DNA from: Candidatus Limnocylindrales bacterium
GTDB taxonomy: Bacteria; Chloroflexota; Limnocylindria; Limnocylindrales; CSP1-4
Reading direction: 5' to 3'
Assembly (NCBI GenBank): GCA_036404515.1
Contig: DASWZK010000071.1
Location: forward strand, 10,704 to 74,703
Length of the DNA: 64,000 bases
In this document: in pieces, positions 51,985 to 60,764 of the stretch
Layout: the number at the start of each line of letters is the position of its first letter
How positions within the stretch are numbered: position 1 is the first letter of the stretch
The notes under the pieces: generated by a model
The model's input: only the letters and a program-made list of their open reading frames with translations
Told to the model about the DNA's origin: nothing
Databases searched by the model: none
Translations under genes and position numbers: made by a program

Positions 51985-52266
51985 CGGCGGTATCCGACGC
52001 GATCGTGCGTCGTCTGTCGGACGGCGCGGCAGAAGCGCGAGCTGCTGCGGATCGTTCGGATGCCGGACGGCCGGATCGCCGTCGACCCGAGCGGTAAAAT
52101 GCCGGGCCGGGGAGCCTACGTGTGCGACAAGCAAGAGTGCCGGTCCGCGGCGCTGGACAAAGGATCGCTTCAGCGAGCGCTGACAGCACCGATCCCGGCC
52201 GAACTCCGGGCCGAGCTGACAGGGGAGGCGAGCAGGATCGAAGGAGGAAGTCGTGGCCAAGAGTAG
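51985..52266 (+). CDS. ylxR: YlxR/DUF448 family RNA-binding protein; 5' boundary unresolved
   Basis: In-frame translation [42 protein letters not shown] matches the YlxR signature. The first canonical start (ATG 52060) lies after the CxxC/ELLRIV motif. The frame is open from 51949. Confidence 0.65.
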
Positions 52267-54163
52267 GAGCGGCACGCGGGGCCGTCGTGGGCCTCGCAAG
52301 CCGGTGCGCCACGACCTTGGAACCCAGGGAGGCGCTGCTGCCGTCGCCGACCCGCGCGAACGCGGCGCGATCGAGCTGCCGTCGAGTATCACTGTCAAGG
52401 ACCTGGCAGATCTGCTCGGCGTCAACCCCGCCGACGTCATTCGCGAGCTGATCAAGAGCGGCATCTTCGCCAATATCAATCAGGGGATCGATCGCGAGAC
52501 GGCATCTCTCGTCGCCGAGGAACTCGGCTACGAGGTCGCCGAATCGGCCCAGATCGGCGGCGCCTCCAGTGGCGACGCCGCCTCGGGTGAGGCTGCGCCG
52601 ATAAGTGCCGCCACAAAGGAACAGCTGTACGAAGAGGACGATCCGAGCCTCCTCCAGCCTCGCGCCCCGATCGTGACCGTCATGGGCCACGTCGACCACG
52701 GTAAGACCTCCTTGCTCGACGCCATCCGCACTACCAAGGTCGCGGCGGGTGAGCGTGGCGGAATAACCCAGCGCATCGGCGCGAGCGAGGTCGTCAAGGA
52801 CGGGCGGCACATCGTCTTCCTCGATACGCCGGGCCACGAGGCCTTCACCGCGATGCGCGCCCGCGGAGCCAAGGTCACCGACATCGCGATCGTGGTTGTC
52901 GCGGCCGACGACGGCGTCATGCCCCAGACCCTCGAAGCGATCGACCACGCCCGGGCGGCCAAGGTTCCGATCATCATCGCCCTTAACAAGATGGACAAGG
53001 CGGATGCCAACCCGGACCGCGTAAAGAACAGCCTGGCCGAGGCCGGCGTTGTCGTCGAGGAATACGGCGGTGACGTGCCGATGGTGCCCGTTTCCGCGAA
53101 GGCTCTACTCGGCCTGGACGAGCTGCTCGAGATGATCAATCTCGTGGCTGATCTGCAGGAGCTAAAGGCCAATCCCAAGCGCCCCGCCGTGGGCACGATC
53201 GTCGAGGCGGAACTGGACAAGGGCCGCGGCCCGGTCGCGACTGCCCTGGTCCAGACCGGCACTTTGCGCGTGGGCGACGTCATCGTCGTGGGCGAGACAT
53301 ACGGCAAGGTCCGCGCTCTCGAGAATGCGCTCGGCAAACGCATCACCAAGGCCGGTCCTTCGAGCCCGGCCGTGGTTCTGGGCCTTGCCGACGTGCCGCA
53401 GGCAGGCGACATCTTGCGCGTTGTGGCCGACGAGAAGATCGCCCGCACGATGGTCGAGGAGCGGAAAGCAGCCTCGGCGGCGCGGTCGGAGGGGAGTGGC
53501 CGCGCCACTCTTGAGGATCTGTATGCGCAGATCCAGGCCGGTCAGACCAAGGAATTGCGGATCATCCTCAAGACGGACGTGTCGGGTTCGCTCGGCGCGA
53601 TCACACACGCCCTGGAGCAGCTGTCGACCGACGAGGTCCGGATCAACGTGCTCCATGAAGGCGCTGGCGACGTCACCGACAACGACATCATGCTGGCGGC
53701 CGCCTCGGATGCGATCGTTGTGGCGTTCAACACGAAGGTGACCGACACTGCCCGTCGCGCCGCCGAATCCGAGAAGGTCGACGTTCGTAACTACGACATT
53801 ATCTACAAGCTCACGGACGACATCTCCGCGGCCCTGCGCGGCATGCTCGAACCGGAGCAGGTCGAGACGGTGGAGGGTCGGGCGGAGGTTCGTCAGATCT
53901 TCAGGGTCGGCAAGGTCGCTGTCATCGCCGGTTGCTACGTGACGGACGGGCGCATCGTTCGTGCCGGTGGTGCTCGGGTCTGGCGCGGCGGCAAGGTGGT
54001 CGTAACAGACCGGATCGAGTCGCTACGCCGCTTCCGCGACGACGTCCGCGAAGTGGCCACCAACTTCGAGTGCGGCATCGGTCTGGCCGGCTCGAATGAC
54101 CTGGCTGAGGGCGACATCATCGAGTGCTTCACACAGCAGATGGTGAGCCGGGCGGCCGGTTGA
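52253..54163 (+). CDS. infB: Translation initiation factor IF-2
   Basis: [24 protein letters not shown] and NKMDK G-domain motifs. AAGGAGGA lies upstream of GTG 52253. Confidence 0.92.
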
Positions 54164-54182: not shown

Positions 54183-54743
54183 ATGACGCAGCGAACCGAG
54201 AGGATCGACGAGCTTCTTCGCCAGGAGATCGGCCGGGCGCTGGAGCGCGAAGTGACCGACCCCGGCATCGGGTTCGTCACCGTAACGGACGTCGAGACCA
54301 GTCCCGACCTGGCTCACGCGCGGGTCTGGGTCAGCGTCATTGGCACCGAGGAACGGCGCAAGGCGTCGCTGGCTGGGTTGCGGCGGGCGATGCCGTACAT
54401 ACGCCGCGGCCTGGCGTCGAAGATCAGGCTGCGCCGCATCCCCGAGCTGGAGGTGCGGCTCGACAGTTCCATCGAGCGAGGCACCCGGGTTCTCCAGATC
54501 ATCCACGATCTTGAAGAGGGCCGGACTCCGGACGGGTTGAGCCAGCCCAGTGAGTCTCTGCCAACGCCCCTGCCGCGCCTGCCGCACGAGGGCGACACTG
54601 TCGACGATCCGCTCGTTGAAGAGTCGTCCGGACACCTGGCGCGAAAGGCCGGAGCAACGGAGTCACGAAAGCGCGAAAGCCACATCGCGCCCGCGAAAGG
54701 GACCAGATCCGGGAAGCCAGCGGCTCGCAGGAGACCGCGGTGA
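54183..54743 (+). CDS. rbfA: Ribosome-binding factor A with a C-terminal extension
   Basis: RIDELLRQEIGRALEREVTDPGIGFVTVTDVETSPDLAHARVWVSV. Confidence 0.85.
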   Translation: MTQRTERIDELLRQEIGRALEREVTDPGIGFVTVTDVETSPDLAHARVWVSVIGTEERRKASLAGLRRAMPYIRRGLASKIRLRRIPELEVRLDSSIERGTRVLQIIHDLEEGRTPDGLSQPSESLPTPLPRLPHEGDTVDDPLVEESSGHLARKAGATESRKRESHIAPAKGTRSGKPAARRRPR

Positions 54744-55774
54744 ACGGTCACGGGCCGCGAGTAGACCTTTCCGAATACGCCGTTGCGGTACCTGAAGAGG
54801 TCCTGGACAGGCTGCGTTCGGCTCGGTGCGTCCTGGCTGTATGTCACGAGAACCCGGAGGCGGACGCATTGGGCTCTGCTCTGGCGGTCAGCCTCCTGGC
54901 CGAGTCGTTCGGGGGGAAGGCGACGCCGGTCTGCGCAGATCCGGTGCCAGCGATGTACGGCTTTCTGCCCGGCATGGACCGCTTTCGCCGTGAGCCCGAC
55001 TCAGCGTTCGACTACGACCTGATCGTGGTCGGCGACTGCGGCGAGCTCGAACGGGTCGGCCCAATCCTGGAGACTCATCGCGAGCTGTTCGAGCGAGTGC
55101 CGATTCTCAATATCGACCACCACATCTCCAACCCGCGCTTTGGCGCTGTGGATTGGGTGGATGCATCGAGCTCGGCCACCTGCGAGATGGTGACGTTGCT
55201 CGCGTTGCGGCTGGGAGTGCCGCTCACGACCGCGGACGGGATGCTCGCCTCGGCTCTGGCGGGCGGCGTGGTGATGGACACCGCCAACTTCCAGCATCCC
55301 AACGTGACGCCCCGGACGTTGGTCGTGGCTGCCGCCTTGAGAGAAGCGGGAGCGCCGTTGAGCGAGCTTGCGCGGCGCTTTTACCGCTCCAAGCCGAACA
55401 ATCAGCTGACGCTTTTTGGGCGAGTCCTCGCTCGCATGGAATCCGACCTGGCCGGCAGGCTCGTCTGGTCCACGCTCGAGCTCGCCGACCTCGTGGCAAG
55501 TGGTGCAGATCCGGCCGAGTCCGAGGGCCTGATCGATCTGCTCGCGCAGTCCGAGAGCTACGAGGTTGCGATCCTGTTCAAGGAGGGCGGCGACTCAACC
55601 CGCATCAGCATCCGGACGCGTGACGGGGGCGTCGACGCGACTGTACTCGCCGACACGTTCGGTGGCGGCGGCCACGCCCGGGCGGCCGGGGCCACGGTTG
55701 CGCTGCCACTTGACAAGGCCCGGGCGGCAGTTCGGGCACGGGCCGCGGCGCTCGTCGACGCAGTAGATCGCTGA
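54740..55774 (+). CDS. nrnA: DHH/DHHA1 phosphoesterase (NrnA-type nanoRNase / pAp phosphatase)
   Basis: CHENPEADALGS, NIDHH and FGGGGHARAAG motifs. In the conserved position between rbfA and truB. Confidence 0.8.
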   Translation: MNGHGPRVDLSEYAVAVPEEVLDRLRSARCVLAVCHENPEADALGSALAVSLLAESFGGKATPVCADPVPAMYGFLPGMDRFRREPDSAFDYDLIVVGDCGELERVGPILETHRELFERVPILNIDHHISNPRFGAVDWVDASSSATCEMVTLLALRLGVPLTTADGMLASALAGGVVMDTANFQHPNVTPRTLVVAAALREAGAPLSELARRFYRSKPNNQLTLFGRVLARMESDLAGRLVWSTLELADLVASGADPAESEGLIDLLAQSESYEVAILFKEGGDSTRISIRTRDGGVDATVLADTFGGGGHARAAGATVALPLDKARAAVRARAAALVDAVDR

Positions 55775-55776
55775 AG

Positions 55777-57648
55777 ATGCCGCCGACGGGTCGGGGAGTG
55801 GACGGGGTCCTTGTCGTTCGGAAGGACCCCGGCTTCACGTCACAGGACGTCGTTGCCGTGGTCCGGCGACTGACTGCAACGCGCCGTGCCGGCCACGGCG
55901 GAACCCTCGATCCATTTGCCTCGGGCGTTCTGCCGATCTTCCTTGGGCTCGCCACACGCCTGGTCGAATACCACATGGGCGACGACAAGGCATATCGGGC
56001 GACGGTGTGCTTCGGTGCGACCTCCGAGACTGACGACCGAGAGGGCGAGCTCGTACCCGGGTCCGGTCCGGGCCCGACGCGGGAGGCAGTGGAGGCGGCC
56101 CTGGCCGGCTTTCGCGGCCGCATCCAGCAGCGACCGCCGGCCTACAGCGCGCTCAAGGTCGGCGGACGCCGAGCTTATCAGCTGGCCCGGCAGGGAACAC
56201 CGCCCCAGCTGGCGCCGCGCCCGGTGACGATCGGCCGCCTCGATCTGGTCGAATGGGACGGATCCGACCCGGAGCGCCCCACGGCAGTTCTCGAGGTGGA
56301 GTGCGGAGCGGGCACTTACATCCGATCTCTGGCCCGCGATCTTGGTGAGCGGCTTGGCTGCGGCGCTTATCTCGGGGCCCTCGTCCGCACGGCCAGCGGA
56401 CCGTTCGCGCTGCCGGCCGCGCACTCGCTCGACGATATCCGTCGGGCGGCGGCCGACGGCCCCGGTGCGCTGGCCCGGGTCCTCTTGCCGGTCGACGCTG
56501 GGCTGGAGGTCGTACCGGAGGCGGTGCTTACCGGCCCTGAGGTTGCCGCTGCAGCGCGCGGCCAGCAGGTCAAGCCGACTCACCGGCCCGCGCTCGAGCA
56601 AGGAACGCGCGTCCGGCTGCTGACCGAGGATCGTGCATTGGTGGGCATCGGATCGTGGAAGGGCGGCCGCCTGGTGCCCGAGAAGATCTTCGTGGCCGCC
56701 CCGCTGCCGGCCGGCTCCGGTTCTACGGCAGAAGCGACAGCCGACGCCGCGACCGGCGTCACTCATTTGATCGAGCCGCGGCTGCGAGTGGTCGACACGC
56801 ACAACCGCATGGCCGTCGCGGCCGGCATCAGTGCTCTCGGAGCCGATTTCGGTCGACTCTACGTGGCGGTGGGTGTCTTCGACGGCCTCCACCGCGGTCA
56901 CCTGTATCTTCTCCGCGAGCTGCGTCGGGCTGCCCGCGACGCCGGCGCGCGAGCCGCGGTCATCACGTTCGACGCCCATCCGGAGGAGCTGATCGAGGGC
57001 CTCGCGCCGCCGCTGCTGTGCGATCCAGACGAGCGCCTCGTGCGCCTGCAGGCCGCCGGCGTCGAGGTCACGGTCGTGCAGCATTTCGACCACGCTCTCC
57101 GAATCACCCCATACGAAGCGTTCGTGGCGGCAATCCGCGAGCGGGTCGACTTGGCCGGCTTCGTCATGACCCCAGATGCCGCTTTCGGGTTCGAGCGCGG
57201 AGGCACCGCGGAGACGCTCGCTTCTCTCGGCGAGCGGGAGGGCTTCTCGGTCAAGGTCGTCTCTTCGTTCCTTTCCAACGGGGAGCAGGTCCGAAGCTCG
57301 GAGATCCGTCGCCGCATCGCCGCCGGGGATCTGTCCGGAGCCAGGCAGCTCCTCGGCCGATTGCACGGCTTCAGCGGCCGGCTCGCTTCGAGCGACACTT
57401 CCGCCGGCGTCCCCCTGATCTTCGAGCTGCCCGTCTCGCTCCCTCCGACGGGCCGCTATGAGGCGCTCGTCGGGCCGTCGTGGCGACTTGGCCGGCTTGC
57501 CGAGCCGGCCTCGATTGCGGCGGTGGCCGCGATTCTGGAGGGGCAGGTGCGGCTCGAGATGACCACCGCGCCGTCTGCCGACGAGGTCCGAGTGGTCCTG
57601 CTCCAGGCCGTCCGGGACGGTGTCCGGGACGGTGTGACTCTCGCCTGA
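55777..57648 (+). CDS. truB: Single ORF fusing tRNA pseudouridine55 synthase TruB (with PUA domain) to an FMN adenylyltransferase (RibF N-terminal module) and a divergent C-terminal module
   Basis: aa 1-305: GHGGTLDPFASGVLPI, YRATVCFG, GTYIRSLARDLG and a PUA-like end. aa ~355-520: VGVFDGLHRGHLYL, VITFDAHP, SSEIRRRI, LLGR. The last ~95 aa lack the usual riboflavin-kinase motifs. No stop occurs between the modules. Confidence 0.85.
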   Translation: MPPTGRGVDGVLVVRKDPGFTSQDVVAVVRRLTATRRAGHGGTLDPFASGVLPIFLGLATRLVEYHMGDDKAYRATVCFGATSETDDREGELVPGSGPGPTREAVEAALAGFRGRIQQRPPAYSALKVGGRRAYQLARQGTPPQLAPRPVTIGRLDLVEWDGSDPERPTAVLEVECGAGTYIRSLARDLGERLGCGAYLGALVRTASGPFALPAAHSLDDIRRAAADGPGALARVLLPVDAGLEVVPEAVLTGPEVAAAARGQQVKPTHRPALEQGTRVRLLTEDRALVGIGSWKGGRLVPEKIFVAAPLPAGSGSTAEATADAATGVTHLIEPRLRVVDTHNRMAVAAGISALGADFGRLYVAVGVFDGLHRGHLYLLRELRRAARDAGARAAVITFDAHPEELIEGLAPPLLCDPDERLVRLQAAGVEVTVVQHFDHALRITPYEAFVAAIRERVDLAGFVMTPDAAFGFERGGTAETLASLGEREGFSVKVVSSFLSNGEQVRSSEIRRRIAAGDLSGARQLLGRLHGFSGRLASSDTSAGVPLIFELPVSLPPTGRYEALVGPSWRLGRLAEPASIAAVAAILEGQVRLEMTTAPSADEVRVVLLQAVRDGVRDGVTLA

Positions 57649-57793: not shown

Positions 57794-58063
57794 GTGCCGC
57801 TCGCGCGGGAGACGAAGGAACAGGTGATCTCGGAGTACGCCGTCAAAGATGGCGACACGGGCTCAGCGGAGGTGCAGATAGCACTCCTGACCGAGAGGAT
57901 CAAGGAGTTGACGGAGCACCTGCGAAGCTTCCCAAAGGATAACCAATCCCGCCGCGGCCTCCTCAAGCTCGTCGGAGAGCGACGCCGCCTTCTCAGGTAC
58001 CTGATCAAGAAGGACAACGCTCGCTATCGCGCCGTCATCGCACGGCTCGGACTGCGCCGCTAG
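57794..58063 (+). CDS. rpsO: 30S ribosomal protein S15
   Basis: [51 protein letters not shown]. Confidence 0.92.
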
Positions 58064-58073
58064 CGCACCGGCC

Positions 58074-58101
58074 GCTTCGCGAGGCGGTGTCCTCGCGAAG
58101 C
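58074..58101 (+). promoter_or_regulatory. Long perfect hairpin in the rpsO-pnp intergenic region (candidate rpsO 3' stabiliser or RNase III processing site)
   Basis: GCTTCGCGAGG-cggtgt-CCTCGCGAAGC is an 11-bp perfect stem starting 11 nt after the rpsO stop. No U-tract follows. Confidence 0.45.
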
Positions 58102-58144
58102 CGCCCCGCGCCCGGCTCGTCCAGGCGAGAACAAGGGCACGCCC

Positions 58145-58166
58145 TTCCTCCTAGGCTCAGGAGGAA
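58145..58166 (+). promoter_or_regulatory. Shine-Dalgarno-sequestering hairpin of pnp
   Basis: TTCCTCCT-aggctc-AGGAGGAA is an 8-bp perfect stem. Its 3' arm is the only SD (AGGAGG 58159-64) upstream of the pnp GTG at 58176. Confidence 0.45.
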
Positions 58167-58175
58167 TACAAGCTC

Positions 58176-60764
58176 GTGTCTCAGACATTCGAGACGCAAT
58201 TCGCCGGTCGCACCCTGACCATCGAGACCGGCAAGCTGGCTCTGCTCGCAGGCGGGGCCGTCACTGTTCGCTTCGGCGACACCATGGTCCTTGGGACGGC
58301 CAACCGGTCCGACCCACGGCCCGGACTCGACTTCTTCCCTCTGACCGTCGAGTTCGAAGAGCGCATGTACGCCGCCGGCAAGATTCCCGGCGGCTTTATC
58401 AAGCGAGAGTCGCGCCCGTCCGAGCAGGCGATTCTGGCTTGCCGGCTGACCGACCGGCCCATCCGGCCGCTCTTCCCCGAGGGTTACAAGGACGACGTCC
58501 AGATCGTGATCACGGTCCTCTCCACGGATCAGGAGAACCAGCCCGACATCCTCGGCACGTTCGCTGCCTCATGTGCGCTGACGATCAGCGAGATCCCATT
58601 CCTCGGGCCCATCGGCGCCGTCCGCATCGGTCGCATTGACAGCGAGTTCGTCGTCAACCCCACGGTCGCCGACCTCGAGCGATCGGACATCGATCTCGTC
58701 GTCTCGGGCACCCGCGACGCCATCATGATGGTCGAGGCCGGGGCCTCGATCGTGCCGGAGGAAGTGATGGCGGAGGCCATTCTCTTTGGCCACCGTTCCA
58801 TCCAGCCGCTTATCGACATCCAGGAACAGATGCGTGCTGCCGTCGGCAAGCCCAAGTCCGTCGGCTACCTGGAGCCCGGCACGGGCTCCGTCCTCGAGTT
58901 CGTCAAGCAGGCCAGCCAACCCGGCTTCGAGGTGGTCGTTCTCGACGTCGAGACGACCGGCCGCGACCCCAAGGTCGCCGATTTGATCGAGATCGGCGCG
59001 GTTCGCGTCCGGGACGGCCAGATCGTTGATCGCTTTTCGACATTCGTCAGTCCCGGCCGCGAGATCTTCGGTGCCCAGATGCACGGCATCACCACTGCGG
59101 ATGTGGCCGGCGCCCCGGTCGCCCGTGAGGCTGCTGAGAAACTGCTCGCCTTCGTCGGTGGCTCCCCAGTCATCGGCCACAACGTCGGCTTCGACCTCGG
59201 CTTCCTCGATGCCGCCCTCGGCGAGACCGGGAAGTTCATCACGGGCGGGTATTTCGACACCCTGGTGATTGCTCGCGAGGCCTACCCGGACCTCGAGTCG
59301 TACAAGCTAAGCGACATCGCTCGCTTCTTCGGCATTGAAGTGGCGACCGCCCATCGTGGTCTGGCCGACGCCGAAACCACTGCGGCCATCGTCGCTCGCT
59401 TCGCCGACGATCTCTCGGCCCGAATCGCGAACCTGCAGGACGCGATCACCATCTCGATCCGTGCCAACCGCACCGAGGGCGAAGATCCGGCCGGCCTGCT
59501 CGACGCGGCCCGCCGCCAGGCCCGCGTCAGCAAGAGCCTCTTCCAGCTGGTTCAGAAGAAGACCGTCCGCAACGTGGTCCTCGACGAGGGGATCCGAATC
59601 GACGGCCGGGGCGTTGACGAGCTCCGACCGATCTCCGTGGAGGTCGGCGTTCTGCCGCGCGCCCACGGGTCGGGCCTCTTCACCCGCGGCCAGACCCAGG
59701 CTCTGACGGTAGCCACGCTCGGCCCGGCCTCCGACGTCCAGCGCATCGACACGATCAGCCCGGAGACCGAGAAGCGATACCTCCACCACTACAACATGCC
59801 GCCATACAGCACCGGTGAGAATAAGCCGATGCGCGGTCCAGGCCGGCGTGAAATCGGCCACGGCCACCTGGCTGAGCGGGCGTTGCTGCCGGTCCTGCCG
59901 TCCGAGGATGAGTTCCCGTATGTCATCCGCCTCGTCAGCGAGTGCGTGACGTCCAACGGATCTACTTCGATGGCCTCGACCTGCGGCTCGAGCCTGGCCC
60001 TCATGGACGCCGGTGTGCCGATCAAGGCCGCCGTCGGCGGTGCCGCGATGGGCCTCATCAGCGAGCCCGATGGCCGCTTCGTGGTCCTGACCGACATCCT
60101 CGGCAAGGAAGACGCTTTCGGCGACATGGACTTCAAGGTGACCGGCACCCGAGAGGGCGTCACGGCGCTGCAGATGGACATCAAGGTCAAGGGCATCAGT
60201 GAGGCGATCATTCGCCAGGGCCTCCAGAAGGCCCACGCCGCTCGGATGGCCATTCTGGACAAGATGGACGCGGTCATCTCTTCAAGCCGCACCGAGATGA
60301 GCAGCTTCGCGCCGCGCATCATCACCATCAAGATCAACCCCGAGAAGATCCGCGACATCATCGGCAAGGGCGGCTCGGTGATCCGCAAGATCCAGGAGGA
60401 GACCGGCACCGAGATCAACGTCGAGGATGACGGCACCGTCCAGATCGCCGCAGTGTCGGGCGATAGCTCGCGCAAGGCGGTCCAATGGATCGAGTCGCTC
60501 ACCCGCGAGGTCGAGGTCGGCGGGCTCTATCTGGGCAAGGTCACTCGGATCATGGGCTTCGGCTGCTTCGTCGAGATCCTGCCCGGCAAGGAAGGTCTGA
60601 TTCGTATAGGCGAGCTGGCCGATTACCACGTGCCGACGGTTGAGGACGTGGTTTCGGTGGGAGATGAAGTGATGGTCGTGGTCGTCGAGATCGATCGGCA
60701 GGGCCGGATCAACCTCTCGCGCAAGGCGGCCATGCAGCGCCACCTCGCTCGCACCGAGGCCTAG
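58176..60764 (+). CDS. pnp: Polyribonucleotide nucleotidyltransferase (PNPase) carrying an inserted DEDDh exonuclease domain
   Basis: RNase PH core 1 (FFPLTVEFEERMYAAGKIPGGFIKRE), core 2 (RIDGRGVDELRPI, HHYNMPPYSTGE, GSSLALMDAGVP), KH (IGKGGSVIRKIQEETG) and S1 (GKVTRIMGFGCFVEI). At 862 aa it is about 150 aa longer than usual. Confidence 0.92.
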   Translation: MSQTFETQFAGRTLTIETGKLALLAGGAVTVRFGDTMVLGTANRSDPRPGLDFFPLTVEFEERMYAAGKIPGGFIKRESRPSEQAILACRLTDRPIRPLFPEGYKDDVQIVITVLSTDQENQPDILGTFAASCALTISEIPFLGPIGAVRIGRIDSEFVVNPTVADLERSDIDLVVSGTRDAIMMVEAGASIVPEEVMAEAILFGHRSIQPLIDIQEQMRAAVGKPKSVGYLEPGTGSVLEFVKQASQPGFEVVVLDVETTGRDPKVADLIEIGAVRVRDGQIVDRFSTFVSPGREIFGAQMHGITTADVAGAPVAREAAEKLLAFVGGSPVIGHNVGFDLGFLDAALGETGKFITGGYFDTLVIAREAYPDLESYKLSDIARFFGIEVATAHRGLADAETTAAIVARFADDLSARIANLQDAITISIRANRTEGEDPAGLLDAARRQARVSKSLFQLVQKKTVRNVVLDEGIRIDGRGVDELRPISVEVGVLPRAHGSGLFTRGQTQALTVATLGPASDVQRIDTISPETEKRYLHHYNMPPYSTGENKPMRGPGRREIGHGHLAERALLPVLPSEDEFPYVIRLVSECVTSNGSTSMASTCGSSLALMDAGVPIKAAVGGAAMGLISEPDGRFVVLTDILGKEDAFGDMDFKVTGTREGVTALQMDIKVKGISEAIIRQGLQKAHAARMAILDKMDAVISSSRTEMSSFAPRIITIKINPEKIRDIIGKGGSVIRKIQEETGTEINVEDDGTVQIAAVSGDSSRKAVQWIESLTREVEVGGLYLGKVTRIMGFGCFVEILPGKEGLIRIGELADYHVPTVEDVVSVGDEVMVVVVEIDRQGRINLSRKAAMQRHLARTEA
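58917..59420 (+). other. DEDDh 3'-5' exonuclease (DnaQ/RNase T-like) domain inserted in the PNPase inter-core helical region
   Basis: aa ~248-415 of Pnp carry Exo I FEVVVLDVETTG, Exo II PVIGHNVGFDLGFL, and Exo III AHRGLADAETT (H-x4-D). Order and spacing match the DnaQ superfamily. Confidence 0.8.

What the first reader, a model, noticed from the sequence alone, without database searches (positions are those of the whole stretch)
55777..57648. truB and ribF fused in one 623-aa ORF, with a riboflavin-kinase module that looks degenerate
truB and ribF are usually adjacent but separate genes. Here a complete TruB (GHGGTLDPFASGVLPI ... GTYIRSLARDLG ... PUA-like LVGIGSWKGGRLVPEKIF) continues without a stop through an Ala/Gly/Ser/Thr linker of ~40 aa (about 56692-56808). 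It then enters an FMN-adenylyltransferase module (VGVFDGLHRGHLYL, VITFDAHP, SSEIRRRI, LLGR). The only internal Met near the junction (ATG 56809) has no SD, which favours a true fusion. After LLGR only ~95 aa remain. In them I cannot find the usual kinase motifs (G-F-P-T-A-N, G-x-R-P-T, E-x-H-L-x-D-F). The FMN-producing half may therefore be inactive, or repurposed as a binding barrel.
Basis: partly seen in the sequence, partly recalled or inferred. Interest (0 to 1): 0.6.

Follow-up and report, generated by a model that had tools for sequence, protein, structure and literature searches.

The report
TruB fused to kinase-dead FAD synthetase
This soil/freshwater Chloroflexota bacterium really does make its tRNA pseudouridine synthase and its FAD-forming enzyme as one protein, and the riboflavin-kinase end has decayed to an inactive-looking barrel. 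That type is known, but this genome has no other recognisable way to make FMN.

Summary
ORF 55777-57648 (623 aa) contains a complete TruB, a roughly 40-aa linker, an intact FMN-adenylyltransferase (FMNAT) module and a roughly 100-aa C-terminal domain. No Flavokinase model matches that domain.

**C-terminal domain.** Profile-profile and fold comparison show it is a shrunken riboflavin-kinase (RFK) barrel. It has lost Flap I, the PTAN Mg-ATP motif, GxRPT, the catalytic Glu and the terminal helix. It keeps the flavin-loop GxY. Its dN/dS is 0.3-0.5, against about 0.1 for TruB and FMNAT.

**Classification.** This is a "type II FAD synthetase" (Yruela 2010) fused to TruB.

**Fusion.** It is real. 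It occurs in independent metagenome contigs and in all 8 sampled genomes of the genus. It is confined to that genus; sister genera have overlapping truB stop and ribF start codons. TruB-RibF fusions recur in other phyla, so the fusion itself is ordinary.

**The open problem.**
- The genome and genus lack both RFK families and the riboflavin synthesis genes.
- They also lack FMN riboswitches and the RibXY-, RibU- and PnuX-type importers.
- FMN-dependent enzymes are nevertheless encoded.

My best reading is FMN/FAD scavenging, with the FMNAT interconverting the two.

**Lead from relatives.** In RFK-less sister genera, an uncharacterised FGGY kinase is tightly linked to the FMN-riboswitch RibXY importer. 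It is a candidate replacement riboflavin kinase.

The parts
55777..57648 (+). Whole fused ORF truB::ribF-like, 623 aa (P0001)
   Evidence: The same fused ORF occurs in the genus and in independent contigs L055-L057.
55864..56505 (+). TruB catalytic domain (TruB_N aa 30-182, TruB_C_2 aa 183-243). The catalytic Asp45 lies in GTLDP.
   Evidence: Pfam. The NCBIfam TruB equivalog scores above its cut-off. Foldseek matches 1k8w with TMt 0.89. dN/dS is 0.09-0.15.
56515..56685 (+). PUA-type C-terminal domain of TruB (aa 247-303)
   Evidence: Pfam PF09157, E 7e-6. pLDDT is above 90. dN/dS is 0.15-0.28.
56686..56808 (+). Linker, aa 304-344. The disordered core is aa 313-328 (56713-56760); aa 331-344 are conserved and confidently modelled.
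   Evidence: pLDDT is 41 for aa 311-330. Column conservation is 0.60. dN/dS is 0.56-1.27.
56809..56811 (+). ATG of Met345, the ancestral ribF start codon, now internal
   Evidence: It aligns with the start Met of the separate ribF-like genes of sister genera. By my reading of the alignment register it also aligns with Met1 of C. ammoniagenes FADS. It is invariant in the 64 aligned fused homologs. There is no SD-like sequence upstream.
56809..57336 (+). FMN adenylyltransferase module (Pfam FAD_syn aa 361-508). It carries HRGH at 56890-56901 and SSEIRRR at aa 507-513.
   Evidence: Pfam E 5e-31. PDB sequence hits to CaFADS cover only this module. Column conservation is 0.925. dN/dS is 0.08-0.14.
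57349..57609 (+). Decayed riboflavin-kinase barrel (LLGR aa 525-528, then six beta-strands aa 531-611). It has no PTAN, no Flap I, no GxRPT, no conserved catalytic Glu and no terminal helix.
   Evidence: no HMM hit; hhalign 97.3%; pLDDT 85-96; Foldseek to RFK modules; dN/dS 0.30-0.48.
57439..57459 (+). LPPTGRY (aa 555-561), the retained GxY flavin-loop motif of the RFK fold
   Evidence: L555, P556, P557, G559 and Y561 are invariant in the genus. The motif is conserved across RFK-less and RFK+ relatives. GxY is named as a substrate-binding motif in PMC2972280.
52253..55774 (+). Upstream operon context: infB (52253-54163), rbfA (54183-54743) and a DHH/DHHA1 nrnA-like gene (54740-55774)
   Evidence: Pfam labels come from the syntenic contigs.
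57794..60764 (+). Downstream context: rpsO (57794-58063) and pnp (58176-60764)

Best explanation
The ORF encodes a single polypeptide carrying two working enzymes and one relic.

**Module 1, TruB.** It makes pseudouridine-55 in tRNA.

**Module 2, FMNAT.** This is a RibF-type FMN adenylyltransferase. It catalyses FMN + ATP <-> FAD + PPi and is reversible.

**Module 3, the former kinase barrel.** It has lost the Mg-ATP site (Flap I and PTAN), GxRPT, the catalytic Glu and the terminal helix, so it does not phosphorylate riboflavin. It survives under moderate purifying selection as a folded six-stranded barrel that keeps the GxY flavin loop. It most likely acts as a structural or flavin-holding accessory of the FMNAT. 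The RibF part is therefore a 'type II FAD synthetase'.

**Origin of the fusion.** In sister genera the truB stop overlaps the ribF start (ATGA or 8-nt overlaps). In one genus a small frame change joined the two genes, leaving a disordered, neutrally drifting tether. Nothing suggests the two activities are functionally coupled.

**Consequence for flavin supply.** The genus has none of the following:
- riboflavin synthesis genes
- either known RFK family
- an FMN riboswitch
- a RibXY-, RibU- or PnuX-type importer

The cell most likely takes up ready-phosphorylated flavin (FMN and/or FAD) and uses this FMNAT to interconvert them.

**Shown here:** the architecture, the homology and decay of the barrel, the selection pattern, the phyletic distribution and the gene absences.

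**Inferred:** activity of TruB and FMNAT, inactivity of the barrel, and FMN/FAD scavenging.
For: **Architecture.** Pfam and NCBIfam. AlphaFold mean pLDDT 85.7. Foldseek matches TruB 1k8w (TMt 0.89) and CaFADS 2x0k over 293 columns.

**Barrel is a decayed RFK.**
- hhalign gives 97.3% probability, E 2e-11.
- Foldseek on the domain alone hits the RFK modules 3op1, 5a88 and 2x0k.
- In the alignment with 11 canonical RFK-bearing RibF proteins among 31 class relatives, PTAN reads AGVP, Flap I is deleted, GVRPTF is lost, and the helix is lost.
- Some sister genera (g4, g8) have deleted further strands. That argues against a conserved catalytic role.
- The functional roles of PTAN, Flap I and the Glu are taken from PMC9299109.

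**Selection.** dN/dS is 0.09-0.15 for TruB, 0.08-0.14 for FMNAT, 0.30-0.48 for the barrel and 0.56-1.27 for the linker.

**Fusion confined to the genus; overlapping stop/start elsewhere**.

**Absences.**
- PF01687 is absent in the own genome and in 46 of 121 class genomes, including near-closed ones.
- PF01982 is absent.
- A class-tuned RFK HMM run with --max over all six-frame ORFs finds nothing below E=3.
- ribH is absent.
- ribD, ribE, ribBA and ribH are absent by tblastn with same-family queries.
- There is no FMN riboswitch in 8 of 8 genomes of the genus.
- There is no RibY SBP in the own genome.
- PF07155 and PF04973 give no match over cut-off in the six genomes of the genus that were tested; there is one sub-threshold PF07155 hit in G017.

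**FMN is needed.** Motifs of NuoF, PyrD and GltB are found in the own genome.

**Reversibility.** FADS enzymes have FAD pyrophosphorylase (FADpp) activity (PMC9299109).
Against: - No enzyme activity was measured, and no FMN or FAD importer was identified in the genome. Scavenging is therefore an inference from absences in a 90.7%-complete, 167-contig MAG. Near-closed congeners (7-10 contigs) do show the same absences.
- RFK-less relatives keep riboflavin importers. Two of them (G005, G035) keep an FMN-riboswitch rib operon. So some riboflavin kinase activity must exist in the wider clade, and an unrecognised kinase could also exist here.
- The barrel is still under selection and keeps its flavin loop, so a rewired activity is not strictly excluded.
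- Met345 is invariant in the aligned homologs, so a separately initiated RibF-like product is possible alongside the fusion.
Confidence: 0.6

Rival explanations
1. An unrecognised, non-orthologous riboflavin kinase, together with an unrecognised riboflavin importer, exists elsewhere in this genome. The organism salvages riboflavin like its relatives. The ORF is still a kinase-dead type II FADS fusion, but the cell is not an FMN/FAD scavenger.
For: The wider RFK-less clade must phosphorylate riboflavin. Sister genera keep FMN-riboswitch-controlled RibXY-type importers. G035 and G005 keep full rib operons; the G035 contig flanks are syntenic with this genome's C91.

An uncharacterised FGGY kinase is exclusive to RFK-less genomes. 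It occurs in 21 of 46 RFK-less and 0 of 75 RFK+ genomes at >=46% identity. It sits directly before the riboswitch/importer in 21 of 21 species-representative loci. This shows that non-orthologous replacement is plausible in this lineage.
Against: The own genus lacks that FGGY ortholog. All 8 own FGGY paralogs fall outside the clade with 98/99 support. The genus also lacks the importer and the riboswitch. No candidate kinase was identified here.
Confidence: 0.3
2. The shrunken barrel is still a riboflavin kinase with a rewired active site. For example, it might hold riboflavin on the GxY loop and borrow ATP from the FMNAT site of a neighbouring protomer, as in the head-to-tail FADS oligomer.
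For: The barrel is retained across a whole family and is under purifying selection, with dN/dS 0.3-0.5 against about 1 for the linker. LLGR, Gly534 and LPPxGxY are invariant in the aligned genus homologs. RFK-less relatives with rib operons need a kinase. CaFADS places the RFK and FMNAT modules of adjacent protomers together (PMC5428420 abstract).
Against: All residues known to bind Mg-ATP or to act as the catalytic base are gone, and no alternative polar residue is conserved across genera. Genera g4 and g8 have deleted whole strands, and in g4 the GxY Tyr is His. Plant and Listeria proteins of the same type lack RFK activity (PMC2972280; PMC9299109).
Confidence: 0.07
3. The ORF is fused at the DNA level but mainly yields two proteins. 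Translation re-initiates at the retained ancestral start, Met345, or the linker is cleaved. The fusion would then be functionally silent.
For: Met345 is invariant within an otherwise drifting region and aligns with the start Met of separate ribF-like genes. The linker core is disordered and would be protease-accessible.
Against: There is no SD-like sequence before ATG 56809. Without a truB stop codon, ribosomes cannot terminate and re-initiate as they can in the overlapping-gene relatives. Every genome of the genus keeps the frame open across a neutrally evolving linker. That is expected only if FMNAT expression depends on read-through from truB.
Confidence: 0.12
4. The fusion is an assembly or sequencing artefact that hides a stop codon or frameshift near 56690-56810.
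Against: The same uninterrupted ORF occurs in 396 protein clusters. It is also in three independent JGI metagenome contigs of 45-164 kb and in all sampled genomes of the genus, including 7- and 10-contig assemblies.
Confidence: 0.01

Closest known systems
FADS type II (Yruela et al. 2010, PMC2972280). Examples are Listeria monocytogenes LmFADS-2 and the sole FADS of Treponema pallidum, Mycoplasma conjunctivae and Eubacterium saphenum.
   Same: It has a prokaryotic RibF-type FMNAT module with HxGH and SSxxR motifs. This is followed by a shorter C-terminal module that lacks PTAN. No RFK activity is expected, and the function of the C-terminal module is unknown. As in T. pallidum, it is the only FADS-like gene in the genome.
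   Different: Here it is fused to TruB. It occurs in a 2.6-Mb environmental Chloroflexota lineage that has no recognisable RFK and none of the tested flavin importer types. The known type-II-only organisms are described in that paper as parasites and pathogens. The decay can also be traced within one family, because genera g5 and g9 still have the full RFK.
Plant-like (chloroplast) FADS, AtRibF1/AtRibF2
   Same: It has an FMNAT module plus a C-terminal module that is 40-60 residues shorter, with PTAN lost. The GxY motif is retained next to a Pro-Pro motif (LNxPP in plants, LPPxGxY here). No RFK activity was detected in AtRibF1/2 (cited in PMC2972280).
   Different: It is bacterial and arose independently. 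Plants have a separate RFK; this genome has none detectable.
Type I bifunctional FAD synthetase RibF/RibC (C. ammoniagenes FADS 2x0k, S. pneumoniae 3op1, T. maritima 1mrz)
   Same: The FMNAT module is homologous (E 1e-19 to 2x0k). The overall two-module fold matches (Foldseek, 293 columns). The barrel descends from the RFK module.
   Different: There is no Flavokinase HMM hit. Flap I, PTAN, GxRPT, the catalytic Glu and the C-terminal helix are all missing. Scores fall below every NCBIfam RibF equivalog cut-off.
TruB-RibF fusion proteins already present in sequence databases (e.g. Bacillota MAG protein MBR6824617.1, 614 aa)
   Same: The order TruB then RibF sits in one ORF. About 35 of the 150 best 50%-identity representatives are fusions of this kind by length and two matched stretches. 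Ten of them were checked by Pfam. Three of the ten also lacked a Flavokinase hit; two of those (P0137, P0138) show type II-like C-termini, while the end of the third (P0145) looks frameshifted.
   Different: Most others keep a full Flavokinase domain (7 of the 10 tested). They share only 33-45% identity with this protein and come from other clusters. The one named example is a Bacillota MAG.
Separate, translationally coupled truB-ribF gene pairs of the infB-rbfA-truB-ribF-rpsO-pnp region
   Same: The gene order and context are the same. Sister genera of the same family have exactly this arrangement, with a 4- or 8-nt stop/start overlap.
   Different: In this genus the stop is gone and the two genes are read as one frame.

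Membership tests
TruB tRNA pseudouridine-55 synthase (TIGR00431) | Full-length match above the curated equivalog cut-off | tested here: met
   215.2 bits against a cut-off of 151.45. Pfam finds TruB_N, TruB_C_2 and TruB-C_2.
TruB tRNA pseudouridine-55 synthase (TIGR00431) | Catalytic Asp in the GxxDP motif, and the TruB fold with a PUA domain | tested here: met
   The motif reads GHGGTLDP, with D45 invariant in 64 homologs. Foldseek to 1k8w gives TMt 0.89 and rmsd 2.4.
TruB tRNA pseudouridine-55 synthase (TIGR00431) | Psi55 formation in tRNA | not testable with these tools
   This needs an enzyme assay or tRNA modification mapping.
FADS type II (FMNAT + non-RFK C-terminal module) | RibF-type FMNAT module with HxGH and SSxxR motifs | tested here: met
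   PF06574, E 5e-31. HRGH lies at aa 372-375. S507, S508 and R511 are invariant.
FADS type II (FMNAT + non-RFK C-terminal module) | C-terminal module shorter than in type I and lacking the PTAN motif | tested here: met
   The barrel plus tail is about 100 aa, against about 150 in the class type I proteins. PTAN aligns to AGVP.
FADS type II (FMNAT + non-RFK C-terminal module) | FMNAT activity present and RFK activity absent | not testable with these tools
   This is inferred from motif conservation and loss only.
Type I bifunctional RibF (TIGR00083 / PRK05627) | Score above the equivalog cut-off across both modules | tested here: not met
   The best score is 123.3 bits against a cut-off of 295. 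All alignments stop at about aa 539, which is model position ~190-199 of 290-326.
Type I bifunctional RibF (TIGR00083 / PRK05627) | Flavokinase domain (PF01687) with PTAN, Flap I and the catalytic Glu | tested here: not met
   There is no PF01687 hit at E<=10. A class-tuned RFK HMM gives no hit. The motifs are absent in the alignment.
RFK beta-barrel fold (homology only) | Six-stranded barrel homologous to RFK modules | tested here: met
   hhalign gives 97.3% probability, E 2e-11. The model has six strands at pLDDT 85-96. The top Foldseek hits are RFK modules with TMq 0.55-0.64, although E-values are only 5e-3 to 0.1.
Archaeal CTP-dependent riboflavin kinase (PF01982) | Any match in the ORF or the genome | tested here: not met
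   There is no match in the own genome at E<=1. There is none in 14 genomes of the family at E<=0.1.

The most novel reading that the evidence does not exclude
A whole family of Limnocylindrales has abandoned the universal RFK-fold riboflavin kinase.

**Sister genera.** They appear to have replaced it with an uncharacterised FGGY-family (xylulokinase-like) kinase. That gene sits immediately upstream of the FMN riboswitch and RibXY-type importer. It is found only in Flavokinase-negative genomes. It would be the first non-orthologous bacterial riboflavin kinase.

**This genus.** It has gone one step further. It has lost the FGGY kinase, the importer and the riboswitch as well. That would make it a free-living bacterium with no riboflavin kinase at all, living on imported FMN or FAD with the TruB-fused FMNAT as its only flavin-cofactor enzyme.
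Probability: 0.3. Interest if true: 0.75.

Novelty: new variant of a known kind. Interest (0 to 1): 0.5.

Why it matters
Taken alone, the ORF is a clean natural example of two things. One is how overlapping, translationally coupled neighbour genes fuse. The other is how the kinase half of RibF decays into the poorly understood 'type II FADS' C-terminal module, with intermediate states preserved in sister genera.

The larger point is the pathway hole. Riboflavin kinase is regarded as essential in free-living cells. Yet 46 of 121 sampled genomes of this abundant soil and freshwater class have no recognisable one. Some of those still make or import riboflavin under FMN-riboswitch control.

That makes the question directly testable: who phosphorylates riboflavin here, or is FMN/FAD taken up directly? 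There is a concrete candidate, the FGGY kinase linked to RibXY. There is also a concrete negative control, this genus, which lacks it. The outcome bears on vitamin B2 cross-feeding in soil communities, on the cultivation of Limnocylindria, and on genome-scale metabolic models that currently annotate this gene as TruB only.

Tried and rejected
**Hidden RFK elsewhere in the genome.** Rejected. The following found nothing:
- PF01687 and PF01982 searches.
- A class-specific RFK HMM run with --max on all six-frame ORFs.
- Regex searches for ribB, ribA and ribE motifs.
- tblastn with same-family RibD, RibE/BA and RibH proteins.

**MAG incompleteness as the explanation.** Rejected. Near-closed relatives (2-10 contigs) show the same absences.

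**The G035 rib-operon contig is contamination.** Rejected for G035, because its flanks are syntenic with this genome's contig C91. Unresolved for G005 contig C98.

**The small CxxC protein downstream of ribH in G035 as a hidden kinase.** Dropped. It has no family hit, and it travels with galU, not with the rib genes.

**Pinpointing the fusing indel.** A nucleotide alignment of the junction was too diverged to be informative.

**PDB sequence search for the barrel.** It matched only the FMNAT part. Fold and profile methods were needed instead.

**Synteny search for what replaced the FGGY-RibXY cluster in this genome.** Nothing useful was found.

**Literature.**
- No paper links an FGGY kinase to riboflavin kinase activity.
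- Nothing relevant on flavin metabolism in Limnocylindria was found.
Full report
**1. Observation**

The window carries one ORF from ATG 55777 to the stop at 57646-57648 on the + strand. It is 623 aa long with no internal stop. Pfam places four domains:
- TruB_N at aa 30-182 (E 3e-47)
- TruB_C_2 at aa 183-243
- the PUA-type TruB-C_2 at aa 247-303
- FAD_syn at aa 361-508 (E 5e-31)

No Flavokinase (PF01687) match appears even at E<=10. This holds for the whole protein, for aa 340-623 and for the last 94 aa alone. In NCBIfam the TruB equivalog scores above its cut-off. Every RibF equivalog aligns only up to about aa 539 and scores far below its cut-off, 123 against 295 bits. This is presumably why public records call the protein simply TruB.

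The gene context is infB, rbfA, a DHH/DHHA1 gene, truB::ribF, rpsO and pnp.

**2. The fusion is real, young and mechanically simple**

A search of the 5.8-billion-protein collection returned 396 proteins with the same TruB+FAD_syn architecture. The 120 best listed share down to 67% identity and are mostly 590-660 aa. The named ones are Candidatus Limnocylindrales.

Three independent JGI metagenome contigs of 45-164 kb carry the same fused gene in the same context.

I compared the protein against 121 genomes of the class.
- The single stop-free frame occurs in all 8 sampled genomes of the window's genus. One of them is split by a contig end.
- It occurs nowhere else.
- In every other genus of the family, truB and the ribF-like gene are adjacent but separate.

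In most of those relatives the truB TGA overlaps the ribF start by 4 nt (ATGA/GTGA) or by 8 nt. A small indel is therefore enough to fuse them. Nucleotide divergence is too high to identify the exact event.

Met345 (ATG 56809) aligns with the start Met of the separate genes. By my reading of the alignment register it also aligns with Met1 of C. ammoniagenes FADS.

The tether behaves as follows:
- AlphaFold models aa 313-328 as disordered, with pLDDT about 41.
- The linker evolves nearly neutrally, with dN/dS 0.56-1.27.

TruB-RibF fusion as such is not rare. Among the 150 best representatives of a 1.8-billion-protein library, about 35 are 570-745-aa proteins that match both halves. I checked ten of these by Pfam.
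- Seven are TruB+FAD_syn+Flavokinase. One is a Bacillota MAG protein in NCBI.
- Three lack the Flavokinase domain. Two of those show type II-like C-termini. The end of the third (P0145) looks frameshifted.

**3. The C-terminal domain is a decayed riboflavin-kinase barrel**

*Homology.* A profile of the domain (133 sequences) aligned to a profile of the RFK domains of class relatives gives 97.3% probability, E 2e-11, over 90 columns.

*Fold.* AlphaFold models six beta-strands (aa 531-611) at pLDDT 85-96 and no terminal helix. Foldseek with the domain alone returns the RFK modules of S. pneumoniae FADS (3op1) and C. ammoniagenes FADS (5a88, 2x0k). TMq is 0.55-0.64 and probability about 1, but E-values are only 5e-3 to 0.1. 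The full model aligns to 2x0k over 293 columns.

*What is lost.* I aligned RibF and RibF-like proteins from 31 class relatives, 11 of them canonical RFK-bearing, plus the window's own protein.
- The Flap I segment (RGRxLG) is deleted.
- PTAN aligns to AGVP.
- GVRPTF is lost.
- The column of the catalytic Glu (E268 in CaFADS) is not conserved between genera.
- The C-terminal helix is absent.

The functional roles of these elements are taken from PMC9299109.

*What is kept.* LLGR, one Gly, the last strand and the LPPxGxY loop. GxY is a substrate-binding motif of the RFK fold (PMC2972280).

*Selection.* Column conservation is 0.62, against 0.925 for the FMNAT. dN/dS is 0.30-0.48, against 0.08-0.15 for the TruB and FMNAT modules. 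The domain is therefore maintained, but not like a catalytic site. In genera g4 and g8 further strands are deleted, and in g4 the GxY Tyr is replaced by His.

*Classification.* This matches the published definition of 'FADS type II': an FMNAT module plus a shorter C-terminal module without PTAN. It also resembles plant-like FADS, which keep GxY next to a PP motif and showed no RFK activity (PMC2972280). LmFADS-2 is described as lacking the RFK domain (PMC9299109). From my own memory of Sebastian et al. 2019, the function of its C-terminal module is still unknown.

**4. Where the decay sits in the phylogeny**

Flavokinase was found in 75 of 121 class genomes.
- It is present in f3 (all but one incomplete genome, G061), in f5, in most of f4, and in genera g5 and g9 of the window's family f1.
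- It is absent from the other 32 f1 genomes, from all 5 f2 genomes (1.0-1.4 Mb), from 8 f4 genomes and from the incomplete G061.
- Several of the negative genomes are near-closed: G038 has 2 contigs, G059 has 4, and G020, G050 and G062 have 7 each.

The RibF-like genes of these genomes carry the same kind of shrunken barrel, fused or not. The kinase loss is therefore family-wide and older than the fusion.

**5. The pathway hole**

In the own genome:
- There is no PF01687 and no archaeal PF01982. PF01982 is also absent in 14 genomes of the family.
- A class-tuned RFK HMM finds nothing below E=3.
- This ORF is the single FAD_syn hit.
- There is no lumazine synthase.
- There are no ribB, ribA or ribE motifs.
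- tblastn with RibD, RibE/BA and RibH of a same-family genome gives no hit, apart from one marginal deaminase-region match at E 0.001.
- There is no RibY-type binding protein.

In the genus:
- No FMN riboswitch was found in any of the 8 genomes.
- ECF-RibU (PF07155) and PnuX (PF04973) gave no match over cut-off in the six genomes tested. There was one sub-threshold PF07155 hit in G017.

Yet motif searches find NuoF-, PyrD- and GltB-like ORFs, and these enzymes need FMN (motif-level evidence only).

The FMNAT module is the most conserved part of the protein. My best reading is that the genus imports FMN and/or FAD and uses the reversible FMNAT to interconvert them. FADpp activity is cited in PMC9299109. 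This is an inference from absences, and no importer was identified.

**6. A lead from the relatives**

RFK-less sister genera still handle riboflavin.
- Their FMN riboswitches precede an ABC ATPase, a permease and an NMT1/THI5-type binding protein. This is the RibXY type, shown to import riboflavin in Chloroflexus (PMC4418817).
- Two RFK-less genomes (G005, G035) carry an FMN-riboswitch ribD-ribE/BA-ribH operon. The flanks of the G035 contig are syntenic with this genome's contig C91, so it is native.

Some riboflavin kinase must therefore exist in the clade.

Immediately upstream of the riboswitch or importer lies an FGGY-family kinase.
- Class-wide, its ortholog (>=46% identity) occurs in 21 genomes. 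All 21 are Flavokinase-negative, and none of the 75 Flavokinase-positive genomes has it.
- Five weaker f3 hits form a separate sister clade.
- The two f4 g27 sequences nest inside the f1 clade, which suggests transfer.
- The order FGGY, ATPase, permease, binding protein holds in genera g2, g4, g6, g8, g13 and in f4 g27.
- It also holds in all 21 species-representative loci with a >=63%-identical FGGY.
- An FMN riboswitch above gathering score lies between FGGY and the ATPase in 11 of 11 loci scanned and in two more.
- The nearest NCBIfam model is xylulokinase, at 225-250 bits against a cut-off of 380.
- No paper links FGGY to riboflavin kinase. PMC4418817 does list an unexplained 'carbohydrate kinase' under an FMN riboswitch in Clostridium ljungdahlii.

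Caveats:
- The co-occurrences amount to roughly two independent events, not 21.
- G035 has a rib operon but no FGGY ortholog.
- The window's genus lacks the ortholog entirely. Its 8 FGGY paralogs fall outside the clade with 98/99 support.

**7. Verdict**

The ORF is a TruB::type II FAD synthetase fusion. It is a known protein type in a fusion architecture that recurs in databases, so the ORF itself is a variant rather than a new kind.

An earlier follow-up of a related genome reached the same view. Its claim was re-tested independently here.

Three things raise the interest:
- The decay series is documented within one family.
- This genome has no recognisable route to FMN.
- There is a testable FGGY candidate for the missing kinase in sister genera.

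Reads and RNA-seq could not be consulted.

Noticed in passing
Relatives: L025:99-1496 (G062), L063-L070, L073-L092, L104, L126: An uncharacterised FGGY-family kinase lies directly upstream of the FMN riboswitch and the RibXY-type ABC importer. It is found only in Flavokinase-negative Limnocylindria: 21 of 46 such genomes, against 0 of 75 Flavokinase-positive ones. It is a candidate non-orthologous riboflavin kinase. It is absent from the window's own genus.
   Followed up: yes
L023 (G035:C194, 5290-9031, minus strand) and L022 (G005:C98, 8925-15201, minus strand): Two Flavokinase-negative genomes of the same family carry an FMN-riboswitch-controlled ribD-ribE/ribBA-ribH operon. In G005 it continues into an FbiC-like FO synthase (two radical-SAM stretches plus CofH_C). 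Riboflavin is therefore made in genomes with no recognisable kinase. G035 also lacks the FGGY ortholog.
   Followed up: partly
window 58176-60764 (pnp), insert about aa 245-420: The PNPase is 862 aa and carries an RNase_T/DEDDh exonuclease domain between its two RNase PH cores. The syntenic contigs show the same feature (Pfam PF00929). It was already reported in this scan as e1-2854489.
   Followed up: no
own genome C91:13036-13410 (outside the window); homolog at L023:4683-5150, minus strand: A conserved protein of about 125 aa containing a CxxC motif lies just upstream of galU. It has no Pfam or NCBIfam family. In G035 it directly follows ribH. It has no kinase features, and its function is unknown.
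   Followed up: partly
Class survey: family f2, genus g14 (G011, G044, G056, G065, G104): A sister family in the same order has genomes of only 1.0-1.4 Mb at 91-93% estimated completeness. These genomes also carry an RFK-less RibF-like gene next to truB.
   Followed up: no
L068 and L017 (f4 genus g27) versus the f1 loci: The FGGY kinases of f4 genus g27 nest inside the f1 clade in the tree. The adjacent ABC ATPase is also somewhat closer to the f1 versions. This suggests that the kinase-riboswitch-importer cassette was transferred between families.
   Followed up: partly
P0137 (577 aa) and P0138 (605 aa), proteins from other lineages: These are TruB fusions to type II-like FADS from other, unidentified lineages. 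Their C-terminal modules lack Flavokinase but keep PPxGxY or PxSGRY loops. The combination seen in the window therefore appears to have arisen more than once.
   Followed up: partly
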